This document shows positions 15,570 to 41,422 of a stretch of DNA of 64,000 nt, piece by piece. Position 1 is the stretch's first letter; every line of letters begins with the position of its first letter. The stretch covers positions 3,488,001-3,552,000 of the forward strand of contig OZ219754.1 of the NCBI GenBank assembly GCA_964291295.2, read 5' to 3'. Both the position numbers and the translations under genes were made by a program. The stretch is from an uncultured Candidatus Binatia bacterium (lineage in GTDB: Bacteria; Desulfobacterota; Binatia; UBA9968; JAJDTQ01). Below the pieces are notes generated by a model, which saw only the letters and a program-made list of their open reading frames with translations, was not told where the DNA came from and made no database searches.

Positions 15570-17306
15570 ATGAAGCCCACACACCCCCACGATCTTCACG
15601 TACCCGCACCGGCAGCGGCAGACGACCCGTTGGTTCCAGCGCGAATGGTGAACGAGTTCGTCTACTGTCCGCGTCTCGCCTATCTCATGTGGAGCCAAGC
15701 CGAGTGGGCGGAGACAGGCGACACCGTGGACGGGCGACGCGTTCATGCGCGAGTCGACCGTCCAAACGCGCCGTTGCCCGATCCAGCGGCGCTGGACGAC
15801 GACGAAGTCAAAGTGATCAGTCGATCCCTTACGCTCTCGTCGGAAGAGCTGGGTGTGATCGCAAAAATCGACATTGCCGAGGCCAAGGACGGCGTGGTGA
15901 CGCCGGTCGACTACAAGCGCGGCAAGCGGCCTCATGTGGCGCACGGCGCATACGAACCGGAACGCGTCCAGGTCTGCCTTCAGGCGTTGTTGCTCGAAGA
16001 ACACGGCTACAGGGTCGAGGAAGGCGCCATTTGGTACGCCGGGAGCCGGGAACGTGTCCGGGTTGAGCTGGATGGCGAACTGCGGCTCGCCGCCCGGGAG
16101 GCGGTGAGCCGTCTACGCCGGACCGTCGCCCAGGGCAAGCTTCCACCGCCGTTGCGGGACAGCCCGAAATGCCCGCGCTGCGCGCTCGTATCCATCTGCC
16201 TGCCTGACGAAATGCGTTCGCTCGGCGGATCGGACCTCGCGCCCCGACCCATTGCGGTCGGGAGCGACGAAGCACTGCCGTTGATCGTCCAGTCGCAGCG
16301 GGCGCGCGTCACCAAGGAAGGCGAGACCCTCAGGATCGCCGACGAGGAACAAGGTGACATCACCGTGCGGTTGAGCGAAGTATCCGACGTGGCACTGTTC
16401 GGGAACGTCTCCATCACCACGCCGGCACTTGTCACGCTCATGGACCGCGAAATCCCGGTGGCCTTCCACAGCCACGGCGGTTGGTTCCGCGGTGTCGCCC
16501 ACGGGACCGGCCACCGAAACGTCGAGGTGCGCACAGCGCAGTACCGGCGCAGCTTCGACGCGGACTACTGCCTGAGTTTCGCCCGCGACCTGGTAGCCGC
16601 CAAGATCGTGAACCAGCGAACCCTTGTGCGCCGTAACTGGCGTGGCGACCGCGACCGCCGCAAGAAAGTACTGGATCGGCTCAACGCAGCCCGAAGGTCG
16701 ACAAGGGCGGCAACCTCGATGGGCGCGCTGCTGGGGCTCGAAGGGGACTCGGCAGCCACATACTTCCGGGCATTCGCCGATCTGCTGACATCGCCAGGCA
16801 ACGACAAGTCGCAAGACGATTCGGAAGATCTGGCGCCGTTCCACTTCGACGCGCGCAACCGCCGTCCTCCGACCGATCCCGTCAACGCCATGCTGTCGTT
16901 CGGCTACGCCATGCTGACGCGGCACCTGACCGTAGCCCTCGCCACCGTTGGACTCGACCCCTATCGCGGCCTCTTCCATGCATCGCGTTACGGCAAGCCC
17001 GCGCTGTCCCTCGACATCATGGAACCGTTCCGTCCGATCGTCGCCGATTCGGTGGTGCTTTCGGCGGTGAACACCGGTGAAATATCGCCCAGCGACTTCG
17101 TGACGGCTCCTACGGGAACGTCGCTGACAAGCGCCGGGCGGCGCCGTTTCGTGGGTGCATTCGAGCGGAGACTTTCTCAGGAGACGACCCATCCGCTGTT
17201 CGGCTACCGGCTGAGCATGCGACGGTTGCTGCTGCTCCAGGCGCGCTTGTTGTGCCGCCATCTCCTGGGCGAACTGCCCAGTTATCCGCACTATCTTCCG
17301 AGGTGA
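15570..17306 (+). CDS. cas1: CRISPR-associated Cas4-Cas1 fusion (type I-G/I-U)
   Basis: Cas4: EFVYCPR, IAKIDIAE, PVDYKRG, KCPRCALVSICLP; Cas1: LFGNVSITT, LGLEGDSAATYF, RNRRPPTDPVNAMLSFGY, LDIMEPFRP. Confidence 0.97.
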   Translation: MKPTHPHDLHVPAPAAADDPLVPARMVNEFVYCPRLAYLMWSQAEWAETGDTVDGRRVHARVDRPNAPLPDPAALDDDEVKVISRSLTLSSEELGVIAKIDIAEAKDGVVTPVDYKRGKRPHVAHGAYEPERVQVCLQALLLEEHGYRVEEGAIWYAGSRERVRVELDGELRLAAREAVSRLRRTVAQGKLPPPLRDSPKCPRCALVSICLPDEMRSLGGSDLAPRPIAVGSDEALPLIVQSQRARVTKEGETLRIADEEQGDITVRLSEVSDVALFGNVSITTPALVTLMDREIPVAFHSHGGWFRGVAHGTGHRNVEVRTAQYRRSFDADYCLSFARDLVAAKIVNQRTLVRRNWRGDRDRRKKVLDRLNAARRSTRAATSMGALLGLEGDSAATYFRAFADLLTSPGNDKSQDDSEDLAPFHFDARNRRPPTDPVNAMLSFGYAMLTRHLTVALATVGLDPYRGLFHASRYGKPALSLDIMEPFRPIVADSVVLSAVNTGEISPSDFVTAPTGTSLTSAGRRRFVGAFERRLSQETTHPLFGYRLSMRRLLLLQARLLCRHLLGELPSYPHYLPR

Positions 17307-17319: not shown

Positions 17320-17613
17320 ATGAGCGACGAGCGCACCTACATCGTCACCTACGACATTGCCGACAACCGGCGTTGGCGGCGCGTCTTCAAGGCCCTGCAT
17401 GGCTTCGGGGAGTGGCTCCAACTCTCGGTGTTCCAGTGTCGCCTGTCGCGCCGCCGCCGCGTCGAACTGGAAGCAAGGCTGCGCGAACTCGTCAAGGAGG
17501 GCGAAGACCACGTGTTGATCATCGACATCGGTCCGGCGGACAAGACCGATGTTGCGGTCATGAGCATCGGCAAGACGTTCTCGGCGATCGAACGCCAAGC
17601 AGTGGTTGTATGA
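17320..17613 (+). CDS. cas2: CRISPR-associated endonuclease Cas2
   Basis: YIVTYDIADNRRWRRVFK, GEWLQLSVFQC, EDHVLIIDIG. Confidence 0.97.
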   Translation: MSDERTYIVTYDIADNRRWRRVFKALHGFGEWLQLSVFQCRLSRRRRVELEARLRELVKEGEDHVLIIDIGPADKTDVAVMSIGKTFSAIERQAVVV

Positions 17614-17876
17614 TGGCACAGTCGAGTCAAAGTGCCGGAGGTTCAACAGGCGCCCCGGAAAACAGACCTTGCCTGTCCGCCGAGTCGATTCGAGCGGCGA
17701 GGCAACGCAGAAACACCCGGAGTCGCTCGAACCTGCGCATCCTGTTGATTTTCAAGGTTTTCGAAGCACTGACCTGGCCACGACAGCGGCCAACCGAGAC
17801 CCCTCGACCCAGCAAGTCAGGACCGCTCGAAAGCGTCCGGATTTTGCCTTGGCCAACAAAGACTTGTATAGTGACC
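17614..17876 (+). promoter_or_regulatory. CRISPR leader
   Basis: Non-coding region between cas2 and first repeat with AT-rich patches (TGTTGATTTTCAAGGTTTT, GACTTGTATAGT); repeat 3' end ATTGAAG implies + strand transcription. Confidence 0.8.
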
Positions 17877-20800
17877 GTATCCGGGGCGCATGCGCCCCGG
17901 CCTCATTGAAGTGAATGTGACTGTGTCCTTGCCAAGCCCGCACCGCGCAGTATCCGGGGCGCATGCGCCCCGGCCTCATTGAAGTATCCTGTTAACGCTG
18001 CTCATCTCGCTGCTCCTTTCCCGTATCCGGGGCGCATGCGCCCCGGCCTCATTGAAGTCGGCTACTCATCGCTACTCCTCCCTAGGGTTAAGGGGTATCC
18101 GGGGCGCATGCGCCCCGGCCTCATTGAAGTATCCTGTTAATCGCCCTGCTCATAACGCTGCTCATCTCGCTGGTATCCGGGGCGCATGCGCCCCGGCCTC
18201 ATTGAAGTGTCCCAGAGAAGGTGTTGAGGCTAAGTGCATTGGCATCGTATCCGGGGCGCATGCGCCCCGGCCTCATTGAAGTATGATCAATATCACAATA
18301 CGCCTGTGCATCGCTACCCCGTATCCGGGGCGCATGCGCCCCGGCCTCATTGAAGTGCCGTGGCGGTTGCATTCGCGCTGCAACCGCGTGTTGTATCCGG
18401 GGCGCATGCGCCCCGGCCTCATTGAAGTCAACTCTGCCGGGCAAATTATTCCGGGGAGCGATCCACGTATCCGGGGCGCATGCGCCCCGGCCTCATTGAA
18501 GTACATAGCCAGCCGGCATCAACAACACCGTCCCGAACGTATCCGGGGCGCATGCGCCCCGGCCTCATTGAAGTGAGGTTTCGGCCAAAGCGCCAACGAC
18601 CAGCGACAAGTATCCGGGGCGCATGCGCCCCGGCCTCATTGAAGTGTCTCGCCAAGCCGCGTCGATGGCGGCACGGTTCCGGTATCCGGGGCGCATGCGC
18701 CCCGGCCTCATTGAAGTAATTTGACGAACCCGGTTGGACAGCCCGCTTTTGACTTGTATCCGGGGCGCATGCGCCCCGGCCTCATTGAAGTGACGACTAT
18801 CTGGAGGAGCGCGGGCGGGACTCCGCGCGTATCCGGGGCGCATGCGCCCCGGCCTCATTGAAGTAGCCTCAGCCTGTTCGCCATCCATGGAGATTATGGT
18901 GTATCCGGGGCGCATGCGCCCCGGCCTCATTGAAGTGACGACTCTTCGCAAAAGGACAGGACCAGGCACCAGTATCCGGGGCGCATGCGCCCCGGCCTCA
19001 TTGAAGTAGTCCAGACCAGTCCAGACCTAACCCCTAGTTAAGTGTATCCGGGGCGCATGCGCCCCGGCCTCATTGAAGTGGTCTTGACCAGGCCCGGCAC
19101 CAGTTCCTTGAGCAGAGTATCCGGGGCGCATGCGCCCCGGCCTCATTGAAGTGCCGTCCTGCGGATATTCTCGACGTTCATGCGTCCCTGTATCCGGGGC
19201 GCATGCGCCCCGGCCTCATTGAAGTTCGAGCTGCGGCGAGAACGAGGCTGGACCGAAGATGAGTATCCGGGGCGCATGCGCCCCGGCCTCATTGAAGTGA
19301 CCGGTTCCTGAAGTGGAGGAAAACGGGGCTTCCGGCAGTATCCGGGGCGCATGCGCCCCGGCCTCATTGAAGTCCGTCACGTCGCCGGGTGATGTACTCA
19401 CGGTCAGGTTGTATCCGGGGCGCATGCGCCCCGGCCTCATTGAAGTTCCACGACCGCCTTCGAGGACCCTTCACTGAGGCCCAGGAGTATCCGGGGCGCA
19501 TGCGCCCCGGCCTCATTGAAGTGGAGGAGCGGAGGATGATCGCGCTCATCCACTACTGGTATCCGGGGCGCATGCGCCCCGGCCTCATTGAAGTGCCCCT
19601 CCCCTGGTGTCCCCCGGTCACGAATCCGGGGTATCCGGGGCGCATGCGCCCCGGCCTCATTGAAGTGCGCCTTGAGCTTGCCGCGCGGCGGCGGCAAGTC
19701 CACGTATCCGGGGCGCATGCGCCCCGGCCTCATTGAAGTGCCGAGCTGCCGCACGGGGCGGTGATGCGTCCCCTCGTATCCGGGGCGCATGCGCCCCGGC
19801 CTCATTGAAGTGCGAGCGGCACCCGCCATAGGCCCAGCGATGTCAAGTATCCGGGGCGCATGCGCCCCGGCCTCATTGAAGTGTCAAGGATAGCCTTGAC
19901 GCGCTTCAACGTAGCGGCGGGTATCCGGGGCGCATGCGCCCCGGCCTCATTGAAGTGCGTACATCACAACTGCCATCCCAAGAAGGATGGCGTATCCGGG
20001 GCGCATGCGCCCCGGCCTCATTGAAGTAACCTACTGACCTTGGATGCCACCCCAGTGGTGGCATCGTATCCGGGGCGCATGCGCCCCGGCCTCATTGAAG
20101 TGCGTCTTGGCGGCAAGACCGCCAGAGCTCCACGAGAAGTATCCGGGGCGCATGCGCCCCGGCCTCATTGAAGTCGAGCCGCCCCCAGGGCTTGCCACCC
20201 CCGCCCACATGGTATCCGGGGCGCATGCGCCCCGGCCTCATTGAAGTGTAGACGCATCGCGTTATTGGTCATCCGGATTGAGCTGTATCCGGGGCGCATG
20301 CGCCCCGGCCTCATTGAAGTTTCAATTTTCACGGGCGCAACGGCGCGCACTTCGTCAGCCGGTATCCGGGGCGCATGCGCCCCGGCCTCATTGAAGTACC
20401 AGGGTAAGGCTGCTGGCAAATAGCTAGCCACCAAGTATCCGGGGCGCATGCGCCCCGGCCTCATTGAAGTGGGGGAAGGGTATGCCTCGTGGATCATATC
20501 CACGAGGTATCCGGGGCGCATGCGCCCCGGCCTCATTGAAGTGGGGGAAGGGTATGCCTCGTGGATCATATCCACGAGGTATCCGGGGCGCATGCGCCCC
20601 GGCCTCATTGAAGTTCTTTTCCCAAAGCTCCTGTTTCGGCCCGCGCTGGCGGGCGTATCCGGGGCGCATGCGCCCCGGCCTCATTGAAGTGTCTTGCGTA
20701 GCGCCTGCCTGTCTGACCGCCGACTCCACAGTATCCGGGGCGCATGCGCCCCGGCCTCATTGAAGTGCGAAGGCCTTGGCGGAGGGCAGCCGCTGGCCCA

Positions 20801-23800
20801 CGGTATCCGGGGCGCATGCGCCCCGGCCTCATTGAAGTGCCAGCTCATGTTCCGGATTCTGCACGCTTGCTTGGTATCCGGGGCGCATGCGCCCCGGCCT
20901 CATTGAAGTACCGGGAACGATTGCGTCAAGAATGGCCTTGACGCGGTATCCGGGGCGCATGCGCCCCGGCCTCATTGAAGTCACGGACGGTCAAGGACGG
21001 AGTTCACGTTGGCCGCGAGGTATCCGGGGCGCATGCGCCCCGGCCTCATTGAAGTCACTGTTCGAGGGTCAAGCGTGAGCGTCCAGAAGATGGTATCCGG
21101 GGCGCATGCGCCCCGGCCTCATTGAAGTCTGCTACGACGCTCATGTCAAATCAGGCCTGATCGCTGTATCCGGGGCGCATGCGCCCCGGCCTCATTGAAG
21201 TTCCAAGCTAAGGGCTACTTTCGCGCCCTTCTCCCTGCGGTATCCGGGGCGCATGCGCCCCGGCCTCATTGAAGTAACCAAGACCTCGCAATGGCTACCC
21301 AAGCGGGCTGCTTGGTATCCGGGGCGCATGCGCCCCGGCCTCATTGAAGTGCGGCGGTAGCCGGGCCACGAACTATTGGCGGTGGCTGGTATCCGGGGCG
21401 CATGCGCCCCGGCCTCATTGAAGTTCGCCATCAACCCCAAGGATGACCACCCCTGTGGGGTATCCGGGGCGCATGCGCCCCGGCCTCATTGAAGTCCATG
21501 ACGGCATAGGCCACAACTGCCATCGCCAAGGCGGTATCCGGGGCGCATGCGCCCCGGCCTCATTGAAGTGGGATAATCCCGGCAGGCCAGAAATGGCGCA
21601 CCGGGTGGTATCCGGGGCGCATGCGCCCCGGCCTCATTGAAGTGGGATAATCCCGGCAGGCCAGAAATGGCGCACCGGGTGGTATCCGGGGCGCATGCGC
21701 CCCGGCCTCATTGAAGTGGCTCTCTCGGGAAGAGCGGGCGGCGCCAGAGCCGTCGTATCCGGGGCGCATGCGCCCCGGCCTCATTGAAGTACCTTAATAA
21801 CCAATATCGCAATGCGCCTACTCATACGTATCCGGGGCGCATGCGCCCCGGCCTCATTGAAGTAACGGCAGGGGAAATCCCTCGATTTCCCACTGCCCGG
21901 TATCCGGGGCGCATGCGCCCCGGCCTCATTGAAGTCTCCACCAACTCCTGTGCGACCGCCGGGGGAATGTCGATCGAGGTATCCGGGGCGCATGCGCCCC
22001 GGCCTCATTGAAGTGCGGCGTTGCCCAGAAGGTTCCCGTCGTTCGAGACGGGTATCCGGGGCGCATGCGCCCCGGCCTCATTGAAGTCACCCGCTCTATC
22101 GTGTAGGACGCTACCGGTTCGCCGTATCCGGGGCGCATGCGCCCCGGCCTCATTGAAGTTCCCGCCGCAGTTGGTTGAGCGCGGCGGCCTCGGCACTGTT
22201 GTATCCGGGGCGCATGCGCCCCGGCCTCATTGAAGTGGTTACCCGCACGGTCGACTATCGTGATCTTCCCCGTCGTATCCGGGGCGCATGCGCCCCGGCC
22301 TCATTGAAGTTTGTCCCCGGCAAAAAACGCTTCATCCGCGAACAAGTATCCGGGGCGCATGCGCCCCGGCCTCATTGAAGTGTCGTATCGACAAGCCGGA
22401 TGACCTTGAGATTGTCCGGTATCCGGGGCGCATGCGCCCCGGCCTCATTGAAGTATCATGATGCAAGCAACGAGAACTCGCCGGTGACAGGTATCCGGGG
22501 CGCATGCGCCCCGGCCTCATTGAAGTGTCGATCTGGAGGAGCGGCGCGCCGAGGGTTGGGAGTATCCGGGGCGCATGCGCCCCGGCCTCATTGAAGTCGG
22601 GGCGTAAGGTGGGCGTCAATGGAAGGTGAGGGAGGTATCCGGGGCGCATGCGCCCCGGCCTCATTGAAGTATCGCCAGTCGCCATTCGAGCATTTTGATC
22701 TTGGCGAGTATCCGGGGCGCATGCGCCCCGGCCTCATTGAAGTTGCGCGGGCGCGAGTTCATCATGAAGGACGCCTACAGGTATCCGGGGCGCATGCGCC
22801 CCGGCCTCATTGAAGTTTCGAAATCGTGCTGCTCGTGGGCCAGCGGCTGCCCTGTATCCGGGGCGCATGCGCCCCGGCCTCATTGAAGTGCTTGTACATC
22901 CAGCGCAGGCAGATGACTGCGGTGGGGTATCCGGGGCGCATGCGCCCCGGCCTCATTGAAGTCCGGCGGCCGCCGTGAATGGCTAGTGTCGCGGCATGGT
23001 ATCCGGGGCGCATGCGCCCCGGCCTCATTGAAGTGTACGGCGGCGGAAGAGCACGTGCAGGTGATGACGTGTATCCGGGGCGCATGCGCCCCGGCCTCAT
23101 TGAAGTTGAGGTTGTCCACAGTGGACCCCGGCCTGCTGCCCGTTGTATCCGGGGCGCATGCGCCCCGGCCTCATTGAAGTCCCTCAACGAGCACATCGTT
23201 GTCTGGGCTGGCGACGTATCCGGGGCGCATGCGCCCCGGCCTCATTGAAGTGACCTGGAAAGGGATGGCGCATGAACGTCGAGAATCTGATACGGAGTAT
23301 CCGGGGCGCATGCGCCCCGGCCTCATTGAAGTGAGGGGACGCCAGGGTTCGAGTCCCTGCGATACCGGTATCCGGGGCGCATGCGCCCCGGCCTCATTGA
23401 AGTCTGGTCCCGGTCCCGGAACCATCTTGCAGGCGCCTTGTATCCGGGGCGCATGCGCCCCGGCCTCATTGAAGTTTCGACAAGACTGCAGCGCGTATCC
23501 GCAGCCAGACGATGTATCCGGGGCGCATGCGCCCCGGCCTCATTGAAGTGAGTCCGACCGGTCTGACCGGCAACCAACGCTGCGAAGTATCCGGGGCGCA
23601 TGCGCCCCGGCCTCATTGAAGTCCGCAGTTGCCGGATGTCGATTCGCTCTCGGCTGCTGTATCCGGGGCGCATGCGCCCCGGCCTCATTGAAGTGTCTTG
23701 TCAACGATACCGGTAGCATCGTTGACGAGCCGGTATCCGGGGCGCATGCGCCCCGGCCTCATTGAAGTTAGATATCCGAGTACCACTGGATGTGAGGCGG

Positions 23801-26800
23801 CGAGTATCCGGGGCGCATGCGCCCCGGCCTCATTGAAGTCGGCTCAATTGCCGCCGCACGGCGGATGGCCCGACGAGTATCCGGGGCGCATGCGCCCCGG
23901 CCTCATTGAAGTCTGCTGACTGGAGGACGGACCCTGGACTCGGGCGCCGGGGTATCCGGGGCGCATGCGCCCCGGCCTCATTGAAGTTTCGTAGACATGG
24001 AGGATTTTGACCAGCTCCCACAAGTATCCGGGGCGCATGCGCCCCGGCCTCATTGAAGTTACTACGACAAGGGGCTGAACAGATGAGTCTTCAAAGGTAT
24101 CCGGGGCGCATGCGCCCCGGCCTCATTGAAGTCTCAGACTCTCACCGGCACCGGCAATCCCCTCCGTGGTATCCGGGGCGCATGCGCCCCGGCCTCATTG
24201 AAGTCGGAACTCGGAGTAGATCGCCAGTACGTTGCTCATGGGGTATCCGGGGCGCATGCGCCCCGGCCTCATTGAAGTGATATCCTCCCACCCACCGCCG
24301 CCCTCGAACCCGGCGTATCCGGGGCGCATGCGCCCCGGCCTCATTGAAGTCCTTCTACTTGTCTCTCTCCTTCTCTTCCTTCTTACTGTATCCGGGGCGC
24401 ATGCGCCCCGGCCTCATTGAAGTGGTCTGGCCAGGGGTCACGCAGGTGATCAAGGACGGCAGGGTATCCGGGGCGCATGCGCCCCGGCCTCATTGAAGTT
24501 TGCGCCCCGCCAGGACGAACCGAACCTCTGCGCTTAGGTATCCGGGGCGCATGCGCCCCGGCCTCATTGAAGTCAGCTCCTCTTTTTCACGCCGCGTCAT
24601 GTCGTCCTCGTATCCGGGGCGCATGCGCCCCGGCCTCATTGAAGTCCCGACTGGGCAGTGAGCGGTTGCCGCCCAAGCTCGCGCAGTATCCGGGGCGCAT
24701 GCGCCCCGGCCTCATTGAAGTGCCATTATGGCGTACATCACCAGGGCCATGCCAACCAGTATCCGGGGCGCATGCGCCCCGGCCTCATTGAAGTTATCGA
24801 TATCTCGCCATGTCGTCCTCCTAGTGGTGGGTATCCGGGGCGCATGCGCCCCGGCCTCATTGAAGTATGAGAAGATGCTACTCATTGAGAGCTACTCCTC
24901 GGCTGTATCCGGGGCGCATGCGCCCCGGCCTCATTGAAGTATAGCGACTGAAGTGCACTTGGTCTCTATTAACCCCGTATCCGGGGCGCATGCGCCCCGG
25001 CCTCATTGAAGTATCGCACTGCTCCTTTCCCCCGGCCCCGAAGGGCCGTATCCGGGGCGCATGCGCCCCGGCCTCATTGAAGTTGCAAATTATCGTCGAT
25101 GGTGGCACGGCGGCGGCGGGGTATCCGGGGCGCATGCGCCCCGGCCTCATTGAAGTCAGGACCATCTCGTCTGCGTCCTCTTCCCGGCCGGCGTATCCGG
25201 GGCGCATGCGCCCCGGCCTCATTGAAGTTCCCTCGTTCAACGATTCCCCTTCTTGCTCTCCATGCCGGGGTATCCGGGGCGCATGCGCCCCGGCCTCATT
25301 GAAGTGATAGCCGGCCGTCGCAGCAGGCGGCAAATGCGAATAGGTATCCGGGGCGCATGCGCCCCGGCCTCATTGAAGTATCGATTCTATCCATTCTATC
25401 GATCTCCTTATGCGCCCGGGTATCCGGGGCGCATGCGCCCCGGCCTCATTGAAGTTCACTGAGAATGCGCTCCGAGCGCCGCTTCTCGCGGCTGTATCCG
25501 GGGCGCATGCGCCCCGGCCTCATTGAAGTGGGTCGATAAGCTGGACGAGGTAACCGATGTGGTTGGTATCCGGGGCGCATGCGCCCCGGCCTCATTGAAG
25601 TCTGCCGCGCCCGGCCCCACCATGCCGCGCCATGCCTAGTATCCGGGGCGCATGCGCCCCGGCCTCATTGAAGTCGTTGCCGGGTACGCCATCTACGCCG
25701 TGGATGGCGAGGTATCCGGGGCGCATGCGCCCCGGCCTCATTGAAGTGTTTTTGTCGTGAAGGCACCGATGATGAACGTGACAGTATCCGGGGCGCATGC
25801 GCCCCGGCCTCATTGAAGTCGGCTGAACGAAGGCGTGAGCGACACGGTGACGCAGTATCCGGGGCGCATGCGCCCCGGCCTCATTGAAGTCTGTTGCGCA
25901 TGATCGTCTTCTCCCGGCCCTGGACGGTATCCGGGGCGCATGCGCCCCGGCCTCATTGAAGTGAGCAACATCGCGTCGGATACGTACGAACTGGCGTCGT
26001 ATCCGGGGCGCATGCGCCCCGGCCTCATTGAAGTCAGGAGTCGAAGGAGTCGAAGGAGTCGAGGGCTGAGTATCCGGGGCGCATGCGCCCCGGCCTCATT
26101 GAAGTAGGATAGTCTCAGGTCCGATCTCACGGAGCAGATTGGCGAAGTATCCGGGGCGCATGCGCCCCGGCCTCATTGAAGTCGCGAACCTCTGCCGATA
26201 AACCCCGAACAATGCCAGTATCCGGGGCGCATGCGCCCCGGCCTCATTGAAGTTGGAGCACGGGGGGCGGATGGTGAAGGACATGCCGGGAGTATCCGGG
26301 GCGCATGCGCCCCGGCCTCATTGAAGTAGCCGGGGGATGGACTCGAGCATACTGAACAACGACGTGGTATCCGGGGCGCATGCGCCCCGGCCTCATTGAA
26401 GTCCGGACAAGCCGGTCAGGCGGGCCAACGCCGCTTTGGTATCCGGGGCGCATGCGCCCCGGCCTCATTGAAGTTGCATTGTGCCTGGCGGATCTACCTC
26501 ATGGATGTGAAGTATCCGGGGCGCATGCGCCCCGGCCTCATTGAAGTGCGACTCTCCCGAGGAGTACACGCTGGATGATGCGGGCGTATCCGGGGCGCAT
26601 GCGCCCCGGCCTCATTGAAGTACTGTCTGTAGATGATCGAGGAAGGCCGCCGACACCGGGTATCCGGGGCGCATGCGCCCCGGCCTCATTGAAGTGCTTT
26701 ATGAGCTTGCCGTCCATCTGGTTCCACCCGGTGTATCCGGGGCGCATGCGCCCCGGCCTCATTGAAGTCGGATAGGTTCGCTACGCCGCCTGTCCCGGTC

Positions 26801-28532
26801 GTCTGAGGTATCCGGGGCGCATGCGCCCCGGCCTCATTGAAGTCGGATACCGCTAACGACTACTTCCATGGTTGCTACTCCTGTATCCGGGGCGCATGCG
26901 CCCCGGCCTCATTGAAGTATGCAGCAAGCAGCATCGGCCGCAGATTCTGCGGCGTATCCGGGGCGCATGCGCCCCGGCCTCATTGAAGTGGCCAGCGAAG
27001 GGCGCAACAGCACGCCGGGGCGATGTTGGTATCCGGGGCGCATGCGCCCCGGCCTCATTGAAGTGACCTTACCGCCAGCGGCATGAACCGGGACCGCGCA
27101 GTATCCGGGGCGCATGCGCCCCGGCCTCATTGAAGTGGCCCCTCCCACCCCACCGGGCGGAGCGCGCCGTCTAGTATCCGGGGCGCATGCGCCCCGGCCT
27201 CATTGAAGTAACGCCCATTTGCGGGACCTGGTGTTGTTGTTCGCCGATGTATCCGGGGCGCATGCGCCCCGGCCTCATTGAAGTTCTTTTTCACGCCTCG
27301 TCATTTTGTCCCCCTTTGGTTAGTATCCGGGGCGCATGCGCCCCGGCCTCATTGAAGTCATCAGATATTGATGATGCAGCATGTTCCCGGCGCAAAGTAT
27401 CCGGGGCGCATGCGCCCCGGCCTCATTGAAGTCCATCCACGAATGGGACGGTCTATCGTGTCACACATAGTATCCGGGGCGCATGCGCCCCGGCCTCATT
27501 GAAGTGACCATCAAGGAGTTGCGCAAAAAACCGGTATCGACCGGCAGTATCCGGGGCGCATGCGCCCCGGCCTCATTGAAGTCGTTCCACCCCGGGCGGT
27601 GCCAAAACCAACATGCCGTGTATCCGGGGCGCATGCGCCCCGGCCTCATTGAAGTTTCCCGGCGATTGCCGCGATTTGAAGCCTGCTCCGGAGTATCCGG
27701 GGCGCATGCGCCCCGGCCTCATTGAAGTCGGCGGGACTCGCGGGACGGTTCCCCCGAAGGGCCGGTATCCGGGGCGCATGCGCCCCGGCCTCATTGAAGT
27801 TCTACCGCGTAGACGGCGTACCCGCCCACGCTGGCCGGTATCCGGGGCGCATGCGCCCCGGCCTCATTGAAGTAACAAGGCGGCCTCGTCAGCCGGCCCT
27901 TGCTGCACAGTATCCGGGGCGCATGCGCCCCGGCCTCATTGAAGTTAGCCAAGGCCTCGAACAAGTCGAGGCCCGCCCGGTCGGTATCCGGGGCGCATGC
28001 GCCCCGGCCTCATTGAAGTTGCGTTGGATGGCGGAGCACAAGGACCGGCTGCGGGAGTATCCGGGGCGCATGCGCCCCGGCCTCATTGAAGTATCAAGAA
28101 ATTCCCGGAGATCGGACGTCTGACCTCCGCGTATCCGGGGCGCATGCGCCCCGGCCTCATTGAAGTCTGGACCCGGACGGGACGTTTCCACCGGCACGAT
28201 CCCGGTATCCGGGGCGCATGCGCCCCGGCCTCATTGAAGTGTCCCGTCCCGCTTCACGAGCCGACAATTGCCCTGGTGTATCCGGGGCGCATGCGCCCCG
28301 GCCTCATTGAAGTGGGCGGTCCGGTGGTCCGGGAAATCGCCAAAATCGGCCGTATCCGGGGCGCATGCGCCCCGGCCTCATTGAAGTCGGGCACACAGTA
28401 GAGGGTTCCGCCATCTTCGGCCAGTATCCGGGGCGCATGCGCCCCGGCCTCATTGAAGTGTGTGCTGGAGGTTGTAGGTGACCACTACTCGGTGGTGTAT
28501 CCGGGGCGCATGCGCCCCGGCCTCATTGAAGT
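17877..28532 (+). CRISPR. CRISPR array, 36-bp repeat GTATCCGGGGCGCATGCGCCCCGGCCTCATTGAAGT, about 146 repeats / 145 spacers of ~35-45 bp
   Basis: Manual count; mean period ~73 bp; no repeat variants noticed, including the last. Confidence 0.99.
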
Positions 28533-28542
28533 ACCCCTTTAG

Positions 28543-30614
28543 CCCAAGTTTACCACCCTCCAGAAGATCTCATTACATATCATACAGTTACGATGACCAG
28601 AAGTGGCGAGTGGCACTACAGGTGGGTGTTTGAGGGTTGGTTACACGAGGGTTTTGCGGGTTCCTCCGGGAGCGGGATCAATGCCCAAGGCTTTGTAGAT
28701 GGCCTGCTGGGTTGGTTCGGCGCGGGTCGCCTTGCGCACGTGCAAGGTGCGCCCGTCAGCACGGCGGAAGGTGGTGGTGACGCGGTGTTGTCCCTGGAGG
28801 ACGCGGCGTAGCGTGGTCCAACTGGCGTGCTCGTCCGCTTGACGCAAGCGGGTACGGATGACCTGGACGAGTTGGTAGGCGAGCACGGTGATGAACAGAT
28901 GGCCTTCGGAGCGGCGTGGTTTGTGGTGGTAGACGGGTCGCAGGCCGAGTTCGGATTTGAGGGAGCGGAAGACGGCTTCGATGTCGGTGAGCCTGACGTA
29001 GGTACGCCACAGGGCTTCTTCCTTCCAGTGGGTTTCGCTGCTGCGCAGGCAGTAGACGCCGGGATGGGTCATCAGGGAGCCGGGGAGAGGGCGGCGGGTG
29101 AAGCGCACGGCGGTGGCGCGTTGACCGGACTCATCGGTGTCGAGTGAGATGTCGTAGTGCTGGGCGATGCCGCGGGTGCTCTCCTTGAGCCGCCCGATAC
29201 GTTGCCAGACCTGCTCCACACGTTTTTGGGTGTGGGGTCGGGAGAGACCTTCGGAGAGCTTGTTCAGGGCGTTCTCGAAGCGCCGGGCGAAGCGCTCGAC
29301 GATGCCGCGTTCCTTGGCGGCCCGTTGTTCGGAGAAGCAGTACAGGCGCACCTCCCGACCGTCTGGGGACAGGGCCTTGTGCAATTGTATGCCATGCTTG
29401 GAAGCGGTCTTGATGCGCTGTGCCGCCTGAGGGACGAAGTGCCGGTTGCGTTCACGGCTGACCACCAGGTAGCGGTAGCCCTGCTCACGCAGCCACTGCA
29501 GGCGCTCTTCGGTAGCGAGGCCCCGGTCCATCACCACCAGGGCGGAATGCGGGGCCTTGAGCGCATCCAGCATCCGGGCCAGAGTGTGGTGCTCGCGCAC
29601 GTTGCCGGCAAAGACCTGGGAGCGGCGCACGAAGCCGCTGGAGTCGAGCACGAGCCCCAGGGTGAGCAGCGGGCAATCGGTGCGCTTGTCCTTGGAGTGG
29701 CCGCGCAGGGCCTTCGGTTGGAGGGGTGCCGCGCCCTCGAAGTAGGTGTTGGTCAGATCGTAGAGCGTCACGGTGGGTTCGATCTCGAACAGGTCCATGG
29801 CCCGATCGAACAGATGCTTTTCGATGACGTCGCGGTGAGCCATCAGGGCATCGGAGGCGCGATACAGCCGCATGGGTCCCATGGTGGCGAACTCCATTCC
29901 GAGCAGTTCACCCAAGGCGCTGCGTTCGCCGAGCCAGCGTCGGGTGGCACGCTCGGAGCCCGGTTGCGCCATACGCGCGATGATCGAGCCGATGGCGGTC
30001 GCGCGCATCGAGGCGCCGAGACCGAGTTGTTCGAGCAGGGTGCGCAGGCCGAGTTGGTCCATGGCCCACAATCCCACGTGCTCGACGCCCACCGAGCGTG
30101 GTCGAACCAACTCCAGGGAGTCGACATCCACGCTCTGGAGGTCGCCCCCTTGGCTTGGGGTCGCGGTGCCGACGCGCTCCCGGGCGAGGAGTTGGGCGGT
30201 GATGCGCTGGGCGTGGGTTTCGAGTGCCGGGGGACAGCCCGGAGACAGGGGGAGTTGACCGGCAAGCATCTCCTCAATGCGCCGGCACAGCACGGGCCAC
30301 TCCTGTGGAGCCACATCGAAGTGCCGCCCGAGATTGAGCAGGGTGCGTTGACGCACCTTTGAACCGTCGCGTTCGGAGCGCACCAGGCGGTGGGTGACGT
30401 AAGGTTCGCTGCGGCTGCGAGTACGGGTGCGACGGATGAACATGAGAGGGTGGCAGCATGGTGCGCCACCCCCAGCAATACTCAGTATGCACTCTATGGC
30501 ACTACATTGGCTTACCCGACAACCTGTCCACGATATATCAATGACTTGCGTGCCAATTTCGGCAAAATCACCCCTGATTCCTGCCCAAACCGGACTCCAG
30601 GTGGTAAAGTTGGG
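28543..30614 (-). mobile_element. IS1634-family insertion sequence
   Basis: 15-bp TIRs CCCAAGTTTACCACC (28543) / GGTGGTAAAGTTGGG (30600-30614), one mismatch; flanks TTAG and CTAG. Confidence 0.88.
28641..30443 (-). CDS. IS1634-family DDE transposase
   Basis: MFIRRTRT..RLVRSER..KVRQRTLLNLG, LYDLTNTYFEG, GHSKDKRTD, VVMDRG, IEAVFRSLKSELGLRPVYH. Confidence 0.95.
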   Translation of the reverse strand: MFIRRTRTRSRSEPYVTHRLVRSERDGSKVRQRTLLNLGRHFDVAPQEWPVLCRRIEEMLAGQLPLSPGCPPALETHAQRITAQLLARERVGTATPSQGGDLQSVDVDSLELVRPRSVGVEHVGLWAMDQLGLRTLLEQLGLGASMRATAIGSIIARMAQPGSERATRRWLGERSALGELLGMEFATMGPMRLYRASDALMAHRDVIEKHLFDRAMDLFEIEPTVTLYDLTNTYFEGAAPLQPKALRGHSKDKRTDCPLLTLGLVLDSSGFVRRSQVFAGNVREHHTLARMLDALKAPHSALVVMDRGLATEERLQWLREQGYRYLVVSRERNRHFVPQAAQRIKTASKHGIQLHKALSPDGREVRLYCFSEQRAAKERGIVERFARRFENALNKLSEGLSRPHTQKRVEQVWQRIGRLKESTRGIAQHYDISLDTDESGQRATAVRFTRRPLPGSLMTHPGVYCLRSSETHWKEEALWRTYVRLTDIEAVFRSLKSELGLRPVYHHKPRRSEGHLFITVLAYQLVQVIRTRLRQADEHASWTTLRRVLQGQHRVTTTFRRADGRTLHVRKATRAEPTQQAIYKALGIDPAPGGTRKTLV

Positions 30615-30620
30615 CTAGGG

Positions 30621-33067
30621 CTACCCATGCCCCACAAGTGATGCTGGACATTTGATTCGGGCGGTGCTACGGTGCGGGCCATGGATGTTCAGCACCAGAT
30701 CCGGCACCAGCTTGCCCAGCCTGGGTCGGTGCATCATATCACCGAGCTTCTGGATGCGGGGGGCCTTCCGCATCGCACGGCGCTTGCCGAACGTCTGTGT
30801 GCTGATTTCGGTTTCCGCGACGGCCGGGGGCAGCCTCAGGTCGCCACCTGCCTGTGCGCCCTGCGGGCTCTGGAGCGGGCCGGGCAGATCCGGCTTCCGG
30901 CCCGGCGAACGCCCGGTGGGAGTTGTGTCCGGCGGCGCCGGTCGTCGCCGGTGGCGCCGGCACGGGGGGTTCCGGCGGAGGTTGGTGAGGTTCGGGGTCT
31001 GGCGCTGGTTGCGGTTGTGGATCCGGCACAGCGGGAGATCTGGCAGGGACTGATGGAGCACGAGCATCCGCAGGGGGCCGGGCCGCTGGTGGGGCGGCAG
31101 ATGCGGTATTTGCTGGGGTCGGAACACGGCTGGCTGGGGGCCATGGGGGTGGCGGCATCGGCCCTGCAGCTTGCGGTGCGGGACCGCTGGATCGGCTGGG
31201 ACGCGGCGACGCGGCGGCAGCATCTGCACCGGGTGGTGGGTTTGTCCCGGTTCCTGATCCGACCGGAAGTGCGCTGCCGCAACTTGGCGTCGCATGTGCT
31301 GGGACAGCTTCTGCGCCGCTTCGGGGCGGATTTTGCCGCGCGCTATGGTTTCGCGCCATGGCTCATGGAGACCTTCGTGTCGCCGCCCCATGGTGGGGCC
31401 AGCCTGCGGGCCGGCAACTGGCGGTGGCTGGGCGAGACTGCAGGCCGGGGTCGGCAGGACGGTGGCCACGCTGTGGCGGTGGGGGGCAAGGCGGTCTATA
31501 TCCATGAACTGGTGGGTGACTGGCGCACCCGCCTGGGTGTCTCACCGCCCCCGGCGGACACCCTCAGGCTGGACCCGGCGGAGGGTCTTGACGGGCCGTC
31601 CTGGGCCGGGGCGGAGTTGGGCGGCGCGGCGTTCGGCGATGCCCGTCTGAGCGCCCGTCTGGTGGCGATTGCGCAGTTGAAGGGAGCACGATCGATGGGG
31701 TCCTTTCCGCAGGCCGCGAGCGGCAACCGGGCCGAGATCAAGGGGTACTACCGGTTCATCGACCAGCCCGACAGGACCGCGGTGACGCCGGCGGCCATCC
31801 TGGAGCCGCACCGTGCCCGCACGCGGGAGCGCATGCGGGCCGAGCCGGTGGTGCTGTGCATCCAGGACGGCACGGACCTGAACTTTGCATCGCGTCCGGG
31901 CTGCGAGGGGCTCGGGGTCATCGGTGTCAACCAGACCGGCGCCGTTTCACGGGGCCTGCATCTGCATTCGACACTGGCGGTGACCCCGAGCGGCCTGCCG
32001 CTGGGGGTTGTCGGGGCCCGTTTTGATGCACCGCCGGCCAAGGACGAGCCGAGGACACCCGAACCGAGCAAGACCGGACGCTGGCTCGAAGGGTACCGGA
32101 ACTGTGCCGCGCTGGGCCGGGACCTCCCGGAGGGCCGGGTGGTCTGCGTGATGGATCGGGAGGCGGACGCCTTCGAGGTCTTCGAGACGCAACAGGCGCA
32201 CCCGGACGCCGACATCCTGGTGCGAGGCAAGCAGACCCGCCGGGTGGCCGCTGTCCATGCGTCCGGCGCCACCGGCCCGGCCACATCGGTGCGGAAGGCC
32301 CTGCAGGCGGCCCCGGTCCTCGGCACCCTGATCGTCGCCTTGGACCGGCTGACCCCACGGCCCAAGCGAAGCAAGCGCCCGGCCAAGGCCGCCCGCACGG
32401 CGCGCTGCGCCACCCTGACGGTGCGCGCCCAGACCGTGGCCTTGGCACCCACGAGCCCCAGGCATCAGGGCAAGCCGCCGATCCGCCTGCAGGCGGTGAT
32501 GGTGGAGGAGGAGCGTACGCCGGTCGATGCCGTCCCCATCCGCTGGCTGCTGTTCACCACCCTTCCCACCGACACCCTGGAGGACTGCAGGACCTTGGTC
32601 GGGTACTACGCCCGGCGCTGGCGGATCGAGGACTGGCACCGGATCCTGAAGTCCGGTTGCAAGGTCGAGGAACTCGAAAACCGCTCGGCCGACCGCCTCG
32701 CCCGGGCCGTCGCCATCAACCTTGTCATCGCATGGCGCATTCACCTGATGACACTGCTCGGACGCGATCATCCGGACGTGTCACCCGACATCCTGTTCTC
32801 CGAACTCGAAATCAAGGCGCTGAAGGCCTTCGCCGCGCGACAGCGCTACGCCCCTCCCGATACCCTGGCCACCGCCGTACTGACCTTGGCGCGGATCGGC
32901 GGTCATATCCATCGCACCCGTGGACCACCCCCGGGAACAAAGGTGATCTGGCGTGGTCACCTCACCCTCGTTGAATGGTGCATCGGATACCAACTCATGA
33001 TGGAGCAGATAACGTGAAAACAACGGCCACCCTCTTTACTCTCGCATCACTTGTGGGGCATGGGTAG
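30621..33067 (+). mobile_element. IS4-family (Tn5/IS50-like) insertion sequence
   Basis: Perfect 24-bp TIR CTACCCATGCCCCACAAGTGATGC (30621-30644 / 33044-33067) and 8-bp target duplication GGCTAGGG (30613-30620 / 33068-33075). Confidence 0.95.
30672..33017 (+). CDS. DUF4338-like domain fused to IS4/Tn5-type transposase
   Basis: N-term GRQMRYL, RDRWIGW, SRFLIRPEVRCRNLASHVL, METFV..GASLRAGNW; C-term WAGAELGGAAFGDARLSARL, CIQDGTDLNF, VMDREAD, YARRWRIEDWHRILKSGCKVE, PPGTKVIWRG. Confidence 0.93.
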   Translation: MRAMDVQHQIRHQLAQPGSVHHITELLDAGGLPHRTALAERLCADFGFRDGRGQPQVATCLCALRALERAGQIRLPARRTPGGSCVRRRRSSPVAPARGVPAEVGEVRGLALVAVVDPAQREIWQGLMEHEHPQGAGPLVGRQMRYLLGSEHGWLGAMGVAASALQLAVRDRWIGWDAATRRQHLHRVVGLSRFLIRPEVRCRNLASHVLGQLLRRFGADFAARYGFAPWLMETFVSPPHGGASLRAGNWRWLGETAGRGRQDGGHAVAVGGKAVYIHELVGDWRTRLGVSPPPADTLRLDPAEGLDGPSWAGAELGGAAFGDARLSARLVAIAQLKGARSMGSFPQAASGNRAEIKGYYRFIDQPDRTAVTPAAILEPHRARTRERMRAEPVVLCIQDGTDLNFASRPGCEGLGVIGVNQTGAVSRGLHLHSTLAVTPSGLPLGVVGARFDAPPAKDEPRTPEPSKTGRWLEGYRNCAALGRDLPEGRVVCVMDREADAFEVFETQQAHPDADILVRGKQTRRVAAVHASGATGPATSVRKALQAAPVLGTLIVALDRLTPRPKRSKRPAKAARTARCATLTVRAQTVALAPTSPRHQGKPPIRLQAVMVEEERTPVDAVPIRWLLFTTLPTDTLEDCRTLVGYYARRWRIEDWHRILKSGCKVEELENRSADRLARAVAINLVIAWRIHLMTLLGRDHPDVSPDILFSELEIKALKAFAARQRYAPPDTLATAVLTLARIGGHIHRTRGPPPGTKVIWRGHLTLVEWCIGYQLMMEQIT

Positions 33068-33563: not shown

Positions 33564-33626
33564 CTAATTCACGGGTAACGACAAATTCAAGCGTCAATTG
33601 GCGTCGGAACAGCGGAGTGTCGTGTG

Positions 33627-38563: not shown

Positions 38564-38573
38564 GGAGACGCAC

Positions 38574-39665: not shown

Positions 39666-39677
39666 CGAGTCGTTTCG

Positions 39678-41416: not shown

Positions 41417-41422
41417 ACAAAC

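What the first reader, a model, noticed from the sequence alone, without database searches (positions are those of the whole stretch)
17986..27322. Many CRISPR spacers cover Shine-Dalgarno + start-codon regions, mostly antisense, with shared upstream motifs
Seen: reverse complements read as translation starts: 17986-18022 GGGAAAGGAGCAGCGAG-ATG; 18059-18094 GGGAGGAGTAGCG-ATG; 24867-24904 GAGGAGTAGCTCTCA-ATG; 26844-26882 AGGAGTAGCAACC-ATG; 25013-25047 hairpin GGCCC-TTCG-GGGCC then GGGGGAAAGGAGCAGTGCG-AT; 24795-24830 AGGAGGACGAC-ATG; 24574-24609 GAGGACGAC-ATG; 25380-25419 AAGGAGATCGATAGA-ATG; 27285-27322 AAAGGGGGACAAA-ATG; 18283-18320 GGGGTAGCG-ATG; 19153-19189 AGGGACGC-ATG; 25891-25926 GGAGAAGACGATC-ATG. 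A few are in sense (19523-19558, 20471-20506, 23252-23296). A motif AGGAGYAG recurs in five and GAGGACGACATG in two. Inference: either the invaders carry arrays of tiny genes with a conserved start-associated sequence (where anti-defence genes often sit), or spacers on initiation regions are preferentially acquired or retained, possibly because crRNA pairing to mRNA or Cascade binding silences expression in addition to Cas3 cleavage.
Basis: partly seen in the sequence, partly recalled or inferred. Interest (0 to 1): 0.72.

Follow-up and report, generated by a model that had tools for sequence, protein, structure and literature searches.

The report
Ordinary CRISPR spacers over gene starts
A large type I-G CRISPR array really does hold many spacers that read backwards as ribosome-binding site plus start codon, but this looks like the expected by-product of how this CRISPR type picks DNA from compact, related phages rather than a new way of silencing genes.

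Summary
All 15 listed spacers sit at the stated coordinates. By a fixed rule (strong SD 5-mer, 4-10 nt, ATG), 8 of 145 spacers qualify on the reverse strand (1.45 expected from shuffles) and 2 forward (1.38).

- **System:** a type I-G array (146 identical repeats) in a Candidatus Binatia genome.
- **Shared motifs:** they come from repeated sampling of homologous gene starts. Thirteen spacer pairs are related, and start-type spacers cluster in the array.
- **Frequency:** 6.9% here and 4.4% in 711 sister-array spacers. Simulated TTN-PAM sampling of a compact 64% GC phage gives 4.35%.
- **Antisense bias:** it replicates in other arrays of this repeat family (46 reverse, 23 forward). It reverses in 1253 type I-E spacers (10 reverse, 19 forward). 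This direction fits PAM asymmetry: TTN sites are commoner on the antisense strand just after start codons.

No evidence supports start-site silencing. No protospacer was found, so the targets and this array's own PAM remain unverified. The genome also carries two array-less type III-B modules, so a contribution from mRNA-guided selection cannot be excluded.

The parts
15570..17306 (+). cas4g/cas1g fusion gene (adaptation, PAM selection)
   Evidence: NCBIfam NF049935 scores 755.8 bits (cut-off 560). Pfam finds Cas_Cas1 and Cas_Cas4.
17320..17613 (+). cas2
   Evidence: TIGR01573 scores 41.4 bits (cut-off 24.5).
17614..17876 (+). Presumed leader between cas2 and the first repeat, which would make spacers 1-6 the newest
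   Evidence: Position read from the sequence. Leader function is inferred, not tested.
17877..28532 (+). Type I-G CRISPR array: 146 identical 36-nt repeats (hairpin, 4 nt, then 8-nt ATTGAAGT handle) and 145 spacers
   Evidence: Orientation is taken from the ATTGAAG(N) 3' end, which is shared by 15 sister arrays and about 60 other arrays. It also fits the Csb2 cleavage site described in passages of PMC9638904.
17986..18320 (-). Leader-proximal cluster of start-type spacers. Reverse strand reads SD + ATG (MSSVNRI, MSS.., MSSVMSRAINRI, MHRRIVILI).
19153..19189 (-). Spacer 18, antisense over a start (MNVENIRR). Homologous to spacer 74, which lies in the opposite orientation.
23252..23296 (+). Spacer 74, sense over the homologous start (MNVENLIR)
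24574..25419 (-). Second cluster of start-type spacers. Spacer 98 is homologous to spacer 2; spacer 96 resembles spacer 3 by eye only.
25891..25926 (-). Spacer 110, weak SD (GGGAGAAG) + ATG on the reverse strand
   Evidence: It passes only the 4-mer rule.
26844..26882 (-). Spacer 123, AGGAGTAGC..ATG on the reverse strand
27285..27322 (-). Spacer 129, homologue of spacer 92 (MTRREK start). The CGG/AGG difference is synonymous.
19523..19558 (+). Spacer 23, SD + ATG in the sense (crRNA-like) orientation
28641..30443 (-). DDE transposase (IS) directly after the last repeat
   Evidence: Pfam DDE_Tnp_1; sequence.
30672..33017 (+). Tn5-like transposase with an N-terminal DruA-family domain. It separates the array from the effector genes.
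   Evidence: Pfam DruA, Tnp_DNA_bind, Dimer_Tnp_Tn5.
33624..36482 (+). cas3g (helicase N-terminal, HD C-terminal)
   Evidence: TIGR02621 scores 593.8 bits (cut-off 400). Pfam Cas3_HD is weak at residues 650-840.
36479..38563 (+). cas8g1/csx17
   Evidence: TIGR04113 scores 318.1 bits (cut-off 150).
38499..39665 (+). csb1/cas7g
   Evidence: TIGR02570 scores 40.3 bits (cut-off 38); Pfam Cas_GSU0053.
39678..41237 (+). csb2 (Cas5-Cas6 fusion, pre-crRNA nuclease)
   Evidence: TIGR02165 scores 91.2 bits (cut-off 45).

Best explanation
This is a normal type I-G CRISPR array whose spacers were taken from a small pool of related, still unknown phages or other mobile elements with compact, SD-led genes. 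Three ordinary things produce the pattern.

1. **Gene density.** In such elements a few percent of all 37-mers span an SD and a start codon.
2. **PAM asymmetry.** The Cas4/Cas1 fusion selects protospacers next to a 5'-TTN PAM. AA (the complement of TT) is enriched on the sense strand just after start codons, while TT is depleted just upstream of them. PAM-flanked protospacers that reach across a start are therefore more often antisense.
3. **Repeated sampling.** The same gene-start region of related variants was sampled again and again, probably in bursts (primed adaptation or an acquisition hot spot). This multiplies the shared motifs AGGAGYAG and GAGGACGACATG.

**Shown here:** the system type, the counts, the homologous families, the clustering, the replication in other arrays and the reversal in type I-E.

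**Inferred:** that TTN is this array's own PAM, that the targets are phages with small genes, and that priming caused the bursts.
For: **System.** All type I-G genes score above their curated cut-offs. The repeat is a hairpin, then 4 nt, then an 8-nt handle, matching the Csb2 cleavage geometry in passages of PMC9638904.

**PAM.**
- TTN is stated for type I-G in PMC9638904. GAA on the PAM strand is used in PMC10504553.
- Among 12 within-array overlapping spacer pairs, 5 give a TTN 5' flank, including the 3 of 3 from Binatia sister arrays (TTG, TTG, TTC).
- 0 of 13 cross-array short matches (mostly chance) give TTN.

**Frequency.**
- TTN simulation on phage CN1 (64% GC, 72 genes in 50 kb) gives 1.46% forward and 2.89% reverse, 4.35% in total.
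- Observed: sister arrays 12 + 19 of 711 (4.4%); window 2 + 8 of 145 (6.9%; Poisson p = 0.11).
- Window against sisters: p = 0.20.

**Orientation.**
- Simulated reverse/forward ratio under TTN: 1.98 (CN1), 1.21 (27 high-GC IMG/VR loci, bootstrap 0.95-1.55), 1.20 (host chromosome). At sites that open ORFs of at least 60 codons: 2.13, 1.30, 1.30, and 2.71 for contigs C2+C3.
- Around 1440 host starts, AA density at +3..+22 is 0.042-0.052. TT density at -40..-21 is 0.032.
- Observed ratio: 54:25 pooled and 46:23 without the window.

**Control.** 1253 unique type I-E spacers (AAG-type PAM) from 18 arrays of the same phylum give the reverse pattern, 19 forward and 10 reverse. Fisher p against the I-G family is 0.002. 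The result holds in 4 of 5 motif definitions.

**Overall strand.** About 53-59% of spacers are antisense by a codon model. TTN predicts 52.5% on host genes and 59.5% on CN1.

**Redundancy.** Thirteen spacer pairs score above every shuffled pair, among them 2/4, 2/98, 92/129, 18/74 and 33/54 (6/54 and 92/95 are borderline). Start-type spacers cluster in the array (p = 0.01-0.02).
Against: - No protospacer of this array was found anywhere. The gene context, the gene sizes and this array's own PAM are therefore unverified.
- The window's own overlapping-spacer flanks are not TTN (CAG, CCA, TCC). These pairs are diverged homologues, so the flanks may not be informative.
- The PAM simulation gives a ratio of only 1.2 on two of the three large test sets. 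The observed ratio is about 2.0-2.2, with a rough 95% interval of 1.35-3.5 that I worked out by hand from 54 of 79. For the replication set alone, p = 0.053 against the 1.21 model. An extra factor of up to about 1.5-fold is not excluded.
- Only one annotated phage was simulated.
- Arrays of related genomes are not independent samples.
Confidence: 0.7

Rival explanations
1. Selection by type III-B. crRNAs of this array would also be loaded into the genome's two array-less Cmr (type III-B) complexes, which need guides complementary to mRNA. Antisense spacers, especially over the 5' ends of early transcripts, would then protect twice and be kept preferentially. This would add to the PAM effect.
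For: - There are two complete cmr1-2-3-4-6 modules with CARF-type genes, at C1 about 1039-1046 kb and about 3224-3233 kb.
- The genome holds only two CRISPR arrays, this one and a small type I-E array.
- In 3 sister genomes (G009, G021, G020) a cmr4 lies 8-11 kb from the I-G array.
[quoted passage not shown] - The observed ratio lies at the top of the range the PAM model predicts.
Against: - Sister arrays from genomes without a cmr4 hit show the same overall antisense estimate as those with one: L005 0.46, L006 0.45, L007 0.42, L014 0.36 sense, against window 0.47, L003 0.40, L004 0.51, L013 0.31.
- Start-type counts are 14 reverse to 5 forward with cmr4 and 13 to 9 without. I tallied these by hand from the lists. 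They are not clearly different, and no test was run.
- In this genome the Cmr modules lie far from the array.
- crRNA sharing was not tested.
Confidence: 0.15
2. Spacers over initiation regions would be preferentially acquired or retained because type I-G crRNA or Cascade binding at the SD and AUG silences expression in addition to Cas3 cleavage.
For: Reverse-strand SD+ATG spacers exceed shuffles in the window (8 against 1.45), in sister arrays (19 against 6.25) and in other arrays of the repeat family (27 against 13.7). Such crRNAs would be complementary to the mRNA.
Against: - The frequency matches plain TTN-PAM sampling of a compact phage (4.4% against 4.35%).
- In 1518 spacers of other arrays the total is only 2.5%.
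- Type I-E arrays show the opposite orientation, so there is no general start-site preference.
- In what I read, type I Cascades are described as dsDNA binders that need a PAM (PMC9638904 abstract). Nothing there suggests mRNA pairing.
Confidence: 0.04
3. The pattern is largely a selection artefact. The reader picked purine-rich stretches followed by ATG by eye in GC-rich 37-mers, and the array is no different from chance.
For:
- Against the phage-based null, the window's excess is not significant (p = 0.06-0.11).
Against: - Under a fixed rule, 0 of 1000 shuffles reach the observed 8.
- The same asymmetry appears in two independent spacer sets.
- Homologous spacer pairs differ by synonymous or in-frame changes after the ATG, as real gene starts do.
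Confidence: 0.08

Closest known systems
Type I-G (formerly I-U) CRISPR-Cas, as studied in Geobacter sulfurreducens and Thioalkalivibrio sulfidiphilus
   Same: The gene set matches: Cas4/Cas1 fusion, Cas2, Cas3g with a C-terminal HD, Cas8g/Csx17, Cas7g/Csb1 and Csb2. The repeat is 36 nt with a long hairpin, 4 nt and an 8-nt handle. TTN-type flanks are seen in sister arrays.
   Different: The cas operon is split. The adaptation genes and array are separated from the effector genes by two transposase genes. The handle ends in T (ATTGAAGT) rather than the C or G seen in most relatives. The array is very long (145 spacers), with no degenerate terminal repeat.
Subtype-specific coding- or template-strand bias of CRISPR spacers (preprint 10.1101/2021.05.04.442622; abstract and passages read)
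   Same: That work reports that I-A, I-B and type III spacers favour the coding strand, while I-E and type II spacers favour the template strand. Here the I-G family leans antisense (crRNA complementary to mRNA) and I-E leans the other way.
   Different: The words 'I-G', 'I-U' and 'start codon' have 0 occurrences in that text. Its authors discuss RNA targeting or RNA avoidance as causes. Here simple PAM asymmetry between the strands accounts for the direction.
Shared crRNAs between type I-G (Cst) and type III-B (Cmr) in Pyrococcus furiosus (PMC4666368; abstract in the listing only)
   Same: A type I-G system co-occurs with Cmr modules that have no array of their own. Cmr lies next to the I-G array in three sister genomes.
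   Different: Sharing is not shown here. In this genome the Cmr modules lie hundreds of kilobases from the array.
Primed adaptation and acquisition hot spots in type I systems (recalled; PMC7293040 seen only as a title and abstract)
   Same: There are clusters of spacers from one small region, repeated hits on homologous loci on both strands, and identical PAM positions reused (spacers 2 and 4).
   Different: No target genome is available, so distances between protospacers and any strand pattern around a priming site cannot be measured.

Membership tests
Type I-G CRISPR-Cas | Cas4-Cas1 fusion protein | tested here: met
   NF049935 cas4g_cas1g scores 755.8 bits (cut-off 560), covering residues 21-578.
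Type I-G CRISPR-Cas | Cas3g with helicase N-terminal and HD nuclease C-terminal | tested here: met
   TIGR02621 scores 593.8 bits (cut-off 400). Pfam places DEAD at residues 55-223 and a weak Cas3_HD at 650-840.
Type I-G CRISPR-Cas | Cas8g/Csx17, Cas7g/Csb1 and Csb2 (Cas5-Cas6 fusion); no cas11 and no separate cas6 | tested here: met
   TIGR04113 scores 318.1 (cut-off 150), TIGR02570 scores 40.3 (cut-off 38) and TIGR02165 scores 91.2 (cut-off 45). No other cas gene was seen among the ORFs scanned in 33155-42649.
Type I-G CRISPR-Cas | 36-nt repeat with a long hairpin, cleaved 4 nt 3' of the stem to leave an 8-nt 5' handle | tested here: met
   The repeat reads GTAT-CCGGGGCGCATGCGCCCCGG-CCTC-ATTGAAGT. 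The geometry is as described in passages of PMC9638904. Cleavage itself was not tested.
Type I-G CRISPR-Cas | 5'-TTN PAM next to protospacers | tested here: inconclusive
   No protospacer of this array was found. The two self-matches have non-TTN flanks (TGA, CCG), as would be expected if they are tolerated. Sister arrays give TTG, TTG and TTC from within-array overlaps.
Type III-B (Cmr) using this array's crRNAs | Complete Cmr effector genes in the genome | tested here: met
   Two loci carry Cmr1, Cas10/Cmr2, Cmr3, Cmr4 and Cmr6. Cmr3 scores below its cut-off in both loci.
Type III-B (Cmr) using this array's crRNAs | Physical or functional link to the array (adjacency, shared crRNAs) | tested here: inconclusive
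   The modules are not adjacent in this genome (the nearer one lies about 280 kb away). They lie 8-11 kb from the I-G array in G009, G021 and G020. crRNA loading cannot be tested with these tools.
   Sister arrays give 4.4% and the CN1 TTN simulation gives 4.35%. The window gives 6.9%, p = 0.11. The test uses a stand-in phage, not the real targets.
   Type I-E arrays of the same phylum show 19 forward and 10 reverse. The I-G family shows 25 forward and 54 reverse. Fisher p = 0.002.

The most novel reading that the evidence does not exclude
In type I-G arrays, spacers that span translation starts are antisense about twice as often as sense. That is at or above the top of what a TTN PAM predicts. 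The surplus could reflect dual use of these crRNAs by co-resident, array-less type III-B (Cmr) complexes. Guides complementary to the 5' ends of early phage mRNAs would then be kept preferentially, and the array would serve as a shared DNA- and RNA-targeting memory.
Probability: 0.12. Interest if true: 0.5.

Novelty: new member of a known kind. Interest (0 to 1): 0.25.

Why it matters
As it stands, this is a well-preserved, very long type I-G array in an uncultured Binatia lineage. Its spacer content behaves as expected. The useful lesson is methodological. SD+ATG-like spacers and their strand bias should be judged against PAM-flanked sites of compact phage genomes, not against shuffles. The PAM alone can make spacers at gene starts lean antisense (TTN systems) or sense (AAG systems). 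[quoted passage not shown] The 145 spacers also record an unknown family of Binatia mobile elements, with an effective target pool of roughly 40 kb, for which no sequence was found in the collections searched.

Tried and rejected
**Searches for protospacers (none found)**
- Whole array against 50,697 phage records: megablast gave no match. For the first 7.9 kb, sensitive blastn gave only proS and chance hits at E of about 0.7.
- Whole array against 72,556 plasmids: only a proS hit.
- Own genome: two self-matches, proS and an intergenic site.
- All 28 genomes of the genus and 401 genomes of the phylum: only related arrays and proS. Only 10 or 2 first-look candidates per genome were scored, so weaker matches may have been missed.
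- A sister array against the genus: arrays only.
- IMG/VR exact patterns from spacers 2/4, 40/68 and 92/129: 0 hits each.
- A 16-mer of spacers 40/68: 45 viral loci, none matching beyond 16-22 nt.
- One metagenome scan with the 92/129 consensus: 3 loci with the 20-mer at an apparent start codon (a 46-aa ORF and two identical 153-aa ORFs). No other spacer of the window matched them, so they are not accepted as targets.
- Contigs C2 and C3 of the assembly are not targets; the best ungapped matches are no better than shuffles.
- Sequencing runs: none was listed.

**Ideas considered and rejected**
- An overall antisense bias strong enough to explain 8:2 was rejected. The codon model gives only 53-59% antisense.
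- Reading the AGGAGYAG spacers as iteron-like tandem repeats rather than gene starts was rejected. The heptamer GAGYAGC recurs on both sides of the ATG in spacers 2, 3, 4 and 96, but homologous spacers differ by synonymous changes and by an in-frame 15-nt indel.

**Rows dropped**
- Sister set: L017 (2 repeats), and spacers outside 30-50 nt.
- Broad set: L025, L048 and L093 (the same genomes as L006, L003 and L004); loci with fewer than 6 anchor matches; arrays whose boundaries could not be set (L034, L056, L077 and L133 gave 0 spacers; L130 gave 1); 23 duplicate spacers.
- Type I-E set: L203 (no anchor match) and 23 duplicates.
- Supplementary files of papers were not opened. The supplements of the strand-bias preprint may hold type I-G data.

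Full report
**What is there**

The window lies at C1:3488001-3552000 of a 3.7-Mb, 3-contig genome. Its genus-level relatives carry record titles naming Candidatus Binatia. Positions 17877-28532 hold 146 exact copies of a 36-nt repeat and 145 spacers of 35-45 nt.

Upstream lie a Cas4g/Cas1g fusion gene (15570-17306), cas2 (17320-17613) and a 263-nt presumed leader. Two transposase genes follow the array (28641-30443 on the minus strand, 30672-33017 on the plus strand). After them come cas3g, cas8g/csx17, cas7g/csb1 and csb2 (33624-41237). All score above the NCBIfam cut-offs for type I-G.

The repeat reads hairpin, CCTC, then ATTGAAGT. Passages of PMC9638904 state that Csb2 cuts 4 nt 3' of the hairpin and leaves an 8-nt 5' handle, and that type I-G uses a TTN PAM. 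PMC10504553 uses GAA on the PAM strand for a type I-G Cas4/1. The crRNA is therefore the + strand of the window. A spacer whose reverse complement reads as a gene start gives a crRNA complementary to that mRNA.

**Checking the observation**

I used a fixed rule: AGGAG, GGAGG, GAGGA or AAGGA, then 4-10 nt, then ATG.

| Strand | Spacers that qualify | Expected from 1000 dinucleotide shuffles |
|---|---|---|
| Reverse | 8 of 145 (2, 3, 92, 95, 96, 100, 103, 123) | 1.45; no shuffle reached 8 |
| Forward | 2 of 145 | 1.38 |

AGGAGYAG occurs in 5 spacers and GAGGACGACATG in 2, all on the reverse strand.

**Why the motifs are shared**

An all-against-all comparison of the 145 spacers found 13 pairs scoring above every pair of shuffled spacers:
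- Two identical neighbours: 36=37 and 51=52.
- Eleven non-identical pairs: 2/4, 2/98, 92/129, 18/74, 33/54, 40/68, 107/136, 28/42, 29/94, 29/50 and 11/99.
- Borderline pairs: 6/54, 92/95 and 13/64.

After the ATG, homologous spacers differ by synonymous or conservative changes:
- CGG/AGG in spacers 92 and 129.
- MHRRIVILI, MSRRIAILVIK and RRIALLVIRIE in spacers 6, 54 and 33.
- An in-frame 15-nt indel between spacers 2 and 4.

These are therefore real, related gene starts. Some homologous pairs lie in opposite orientation (18/74, 33/54).

Start-type spacers cluster at the leader end (2, 3, 4, 6) and at positions 92-103 (permutation p = 0.01-0.02). The two clusters are related: 2~98, and 3~96 by eye.

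From 11 non-identical overlapping pairs among 10,440 possible pairs, I infer an effective target pool of roughly 40 kb. That would mean one family of elements sampled again and again.

**Is the frequency unusual?**

Shuffles are the wrong null, because real mobile DNA contains gene starts. Bordetella phage CN1 (64% GC, 72 genes in 50 kb, all on one strand) carries the strict motif in 2.66% of sense 37-mers and 0.56% of antisense 37-mers. Thirty-two of its 72 annotated starts have the motif.

| Set | Forward | Reverse | Total |
|---|---|---|---|
| CN1 37-mers next to TTN (simulated) | 1.46% | 2.89% | 4.35% |
| 711 spacers, 15 sister arrays of the genus | 12 | 19 | 4.4% |
| 1518 unique spacers, other arrays of the repeat family, many phyla | 11 | 27 | 2.5% |
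| Window, 145 spacers | 2 | 8 | 6.9% |

The window's total is not significantly above the simulation (p = 0.11) or above its sister arrays (p = 0.20).

**Is the antisense bias real, and why?**

It replicates. Without the window the count is 46 reverse to 23 forward (binomial p = 0.008). Pooled it is 54 to 25 (p = 0.0015). The bias holds under five motif definitions.

The overall strand of the spacers, estimated with a codon model trained on the host, is only 53-59% antisense.

A TTN PAM predicts the direction:
- TTN sites are 59.5% antisense in CN1 and 52.5% on host genes.
- Around 1440 host starts, AA (the complement of the PAM's TT) reaches 0.042-0.052 at +3..+22. TT upstream is 0.032 at -40..-21 and 0.022 at -20..-1.
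- The simulated reverse/forward ratio is 1.98 for CN1, 1.21 for 27 high-GC IMG/VR loci (bootstrap 0.95-1.55) and 1.20 for the host chromosome.
- At motif sites that open ORFs of at least 60 codons the ratios are 2.13, 1.30, 1.30, and 2.71 for contigs C2+C3.

Evidence that this repeat family uses TTN:
- Five of 12 within-array overlapping spacer pairs give a TTN flank, including all three from Binatia sister arrays.
- None of 13 cross-array short matches, most of them chance, gives TTN.

**Control with another PAM**

I took 1253 unique spacers from 18 type I-E arrays of the same phylum, one of them in this genome. The type I-E PAM is AAG-type, which I state from recall; the orientation is taken from the ...GGGGATGAACCG repeat end. 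These spacers show 19 forward (10.2 expected from shuffles) and 10 reverse (6.8 expected). This is the opposite of the I-G family (Fisher p = 0.002; replication set only p = 0.004).

AAG simulations give reverse/forward ratios of 0.71-1.00. The bias therefore depends on the CRISPR subtype, in the direction set by the PAM. It is not a general property of start sites. It also fits the subtype-specific strand preferences reported in the preprint 10.1101/2021.05.04.442622 (passages read).

**What remains open**

The observed ratio of about 2 lies at the top of the PAM prediction. Against the 1.21 model the replication set gives p = 0.053.

The genome also carries two complete type III-B Cmr modules with no arrays of their own. 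In three sister genomes a cmr4 lies 8-11 kb from the I-G array. Retention of mRNA-complementary guides by Cmr could add to the bias.

Arrays from genomes with and without cmr4 look alike in overall strand estimate. Their start-type counts are 14:5 against 13:9, by my hand tally. I give this rival about 0.15.

No protospacer of this array was found in any collection searched. The targets, their gene sizes and this array's own PAM therefore remain inferred.

One full-text search for natural spacers enriched at Shine-Dalgarno or start sites listed 12 of 46 papers. None of those titles or abstracts addresses the point.

**Verdict**

The 'start-site silencing' reading is not supported. The thing itself is an ordinary, if unusually long and IS-split, type I-G array.

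Noticed in passing
window 22744-22780 (spacer 67); G000:C1:1083460-1083496: Spacer 67 is identical to the genome's own prolyl-tRNA synthetase gene, at its conserved motif region. It also matches proS at 89-100% identity in all 27 sister genomes. The chromosomal site has a TGA flank, not TTN.
   Followed up: partly
window 20175-20211 (spacer 32) and 21570-21681 (spacers 51, 52); G000:C1:1289618-1289654: Spacer 32 is identical to an intergenic, promoter-like site of the chromosome (TTGCCA, 17 nt, GATAAT). The 11 bases that follow this site in the chromosome equal the start of spacers 51 and 52. The invader therefore seems to carry a similar promoter region.
   Followed up: partly
window 28533-33017: Two transposase genes sit between the last repeat and cas3g, splitting the type I-G locus. 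All 146 repeats are identical and there is no degenerate terminal repeat, so the distal end of the array may have been cut off by the IS. The second transposase combines a DruA-family domain with Tn5-type DNA-binding and dimerisation domains.
   Followed up: no
G000:C1 about 1039-1046 kb (L183) and about 3224-3233 kb (L184): There are two type III-B modules (Cmr1, Cas10/Cmr2, Cmr3, Cmr4, Cmr6) with CARF or Csx-type neighbours. Neither has an adjacent array or adaptation genes. In sister genomes G009, G021 and G020 a cmr4 lies 8-11 kb from the I-G array.
   Followed up: partly
G000:C1 about 459.4-460.1 kb (L188, L207): A second, small CRISPR array of type I-E kind is present, with a 29-nt repeat ending GGGGATGAACCG and 20 spacers extracted.
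   Followed up: partly
window 20471-20578 and 21570-21681: Two pairs of adjacent, identical spacers (36=37 and 51=52) point to local duplication of repeat-spacer units or to double acquisition.
   Followed up: no
window 23333-23367 (spacer 75): Spacer 75 looks like the T-arm and 3' end of a tRNA (GGTTCGAGTCC...). It shares 17 nt with a spacer of the Aquisphaera insulae array (L055). It may come from a phage tRNA gene or an attachment site.
   Followed up: no
window 17986-18172 and 24867-24904 (spacers 2, 3, 4, 96, reverse strand): The heptamer GAGYAGC occurs both in the SD region and as codons 1-3 (ATGAGYAGC), spaced 10-14 nt apart. Spacer 4 carries a third copy relative to spacer 2, a short tandem duplication across the start codon.
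   Followed up: partly
window 7174-7741: A 183-bp tandem repeat (3.1 copies, 98% identical) lies inside the gene for a LysM-repeat / SLT transglycosylase protein (7058-9037, minus strand).
   Followed up: no
L185 2294-2434 (metagenome contig): A 46-aa ORF starts with the same 20 nt as the starts covered by spacers 92 and 129 (MTRREK...). It may be a distant relative of the targeted small gene. No other spacer of the window matches this contig.
   Followed up: partly
loci L019-L136 (genome-contig scan): The repeat core GCCCCGGCCTCATTGAAG is shared by long arrays in MAGs of many phyla, including Alpha- and Gammaproteobacteria, Gemmatimonadota, Latescibacterota, Acidobacteriota and Planctomycetota.
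   Followed up: partly
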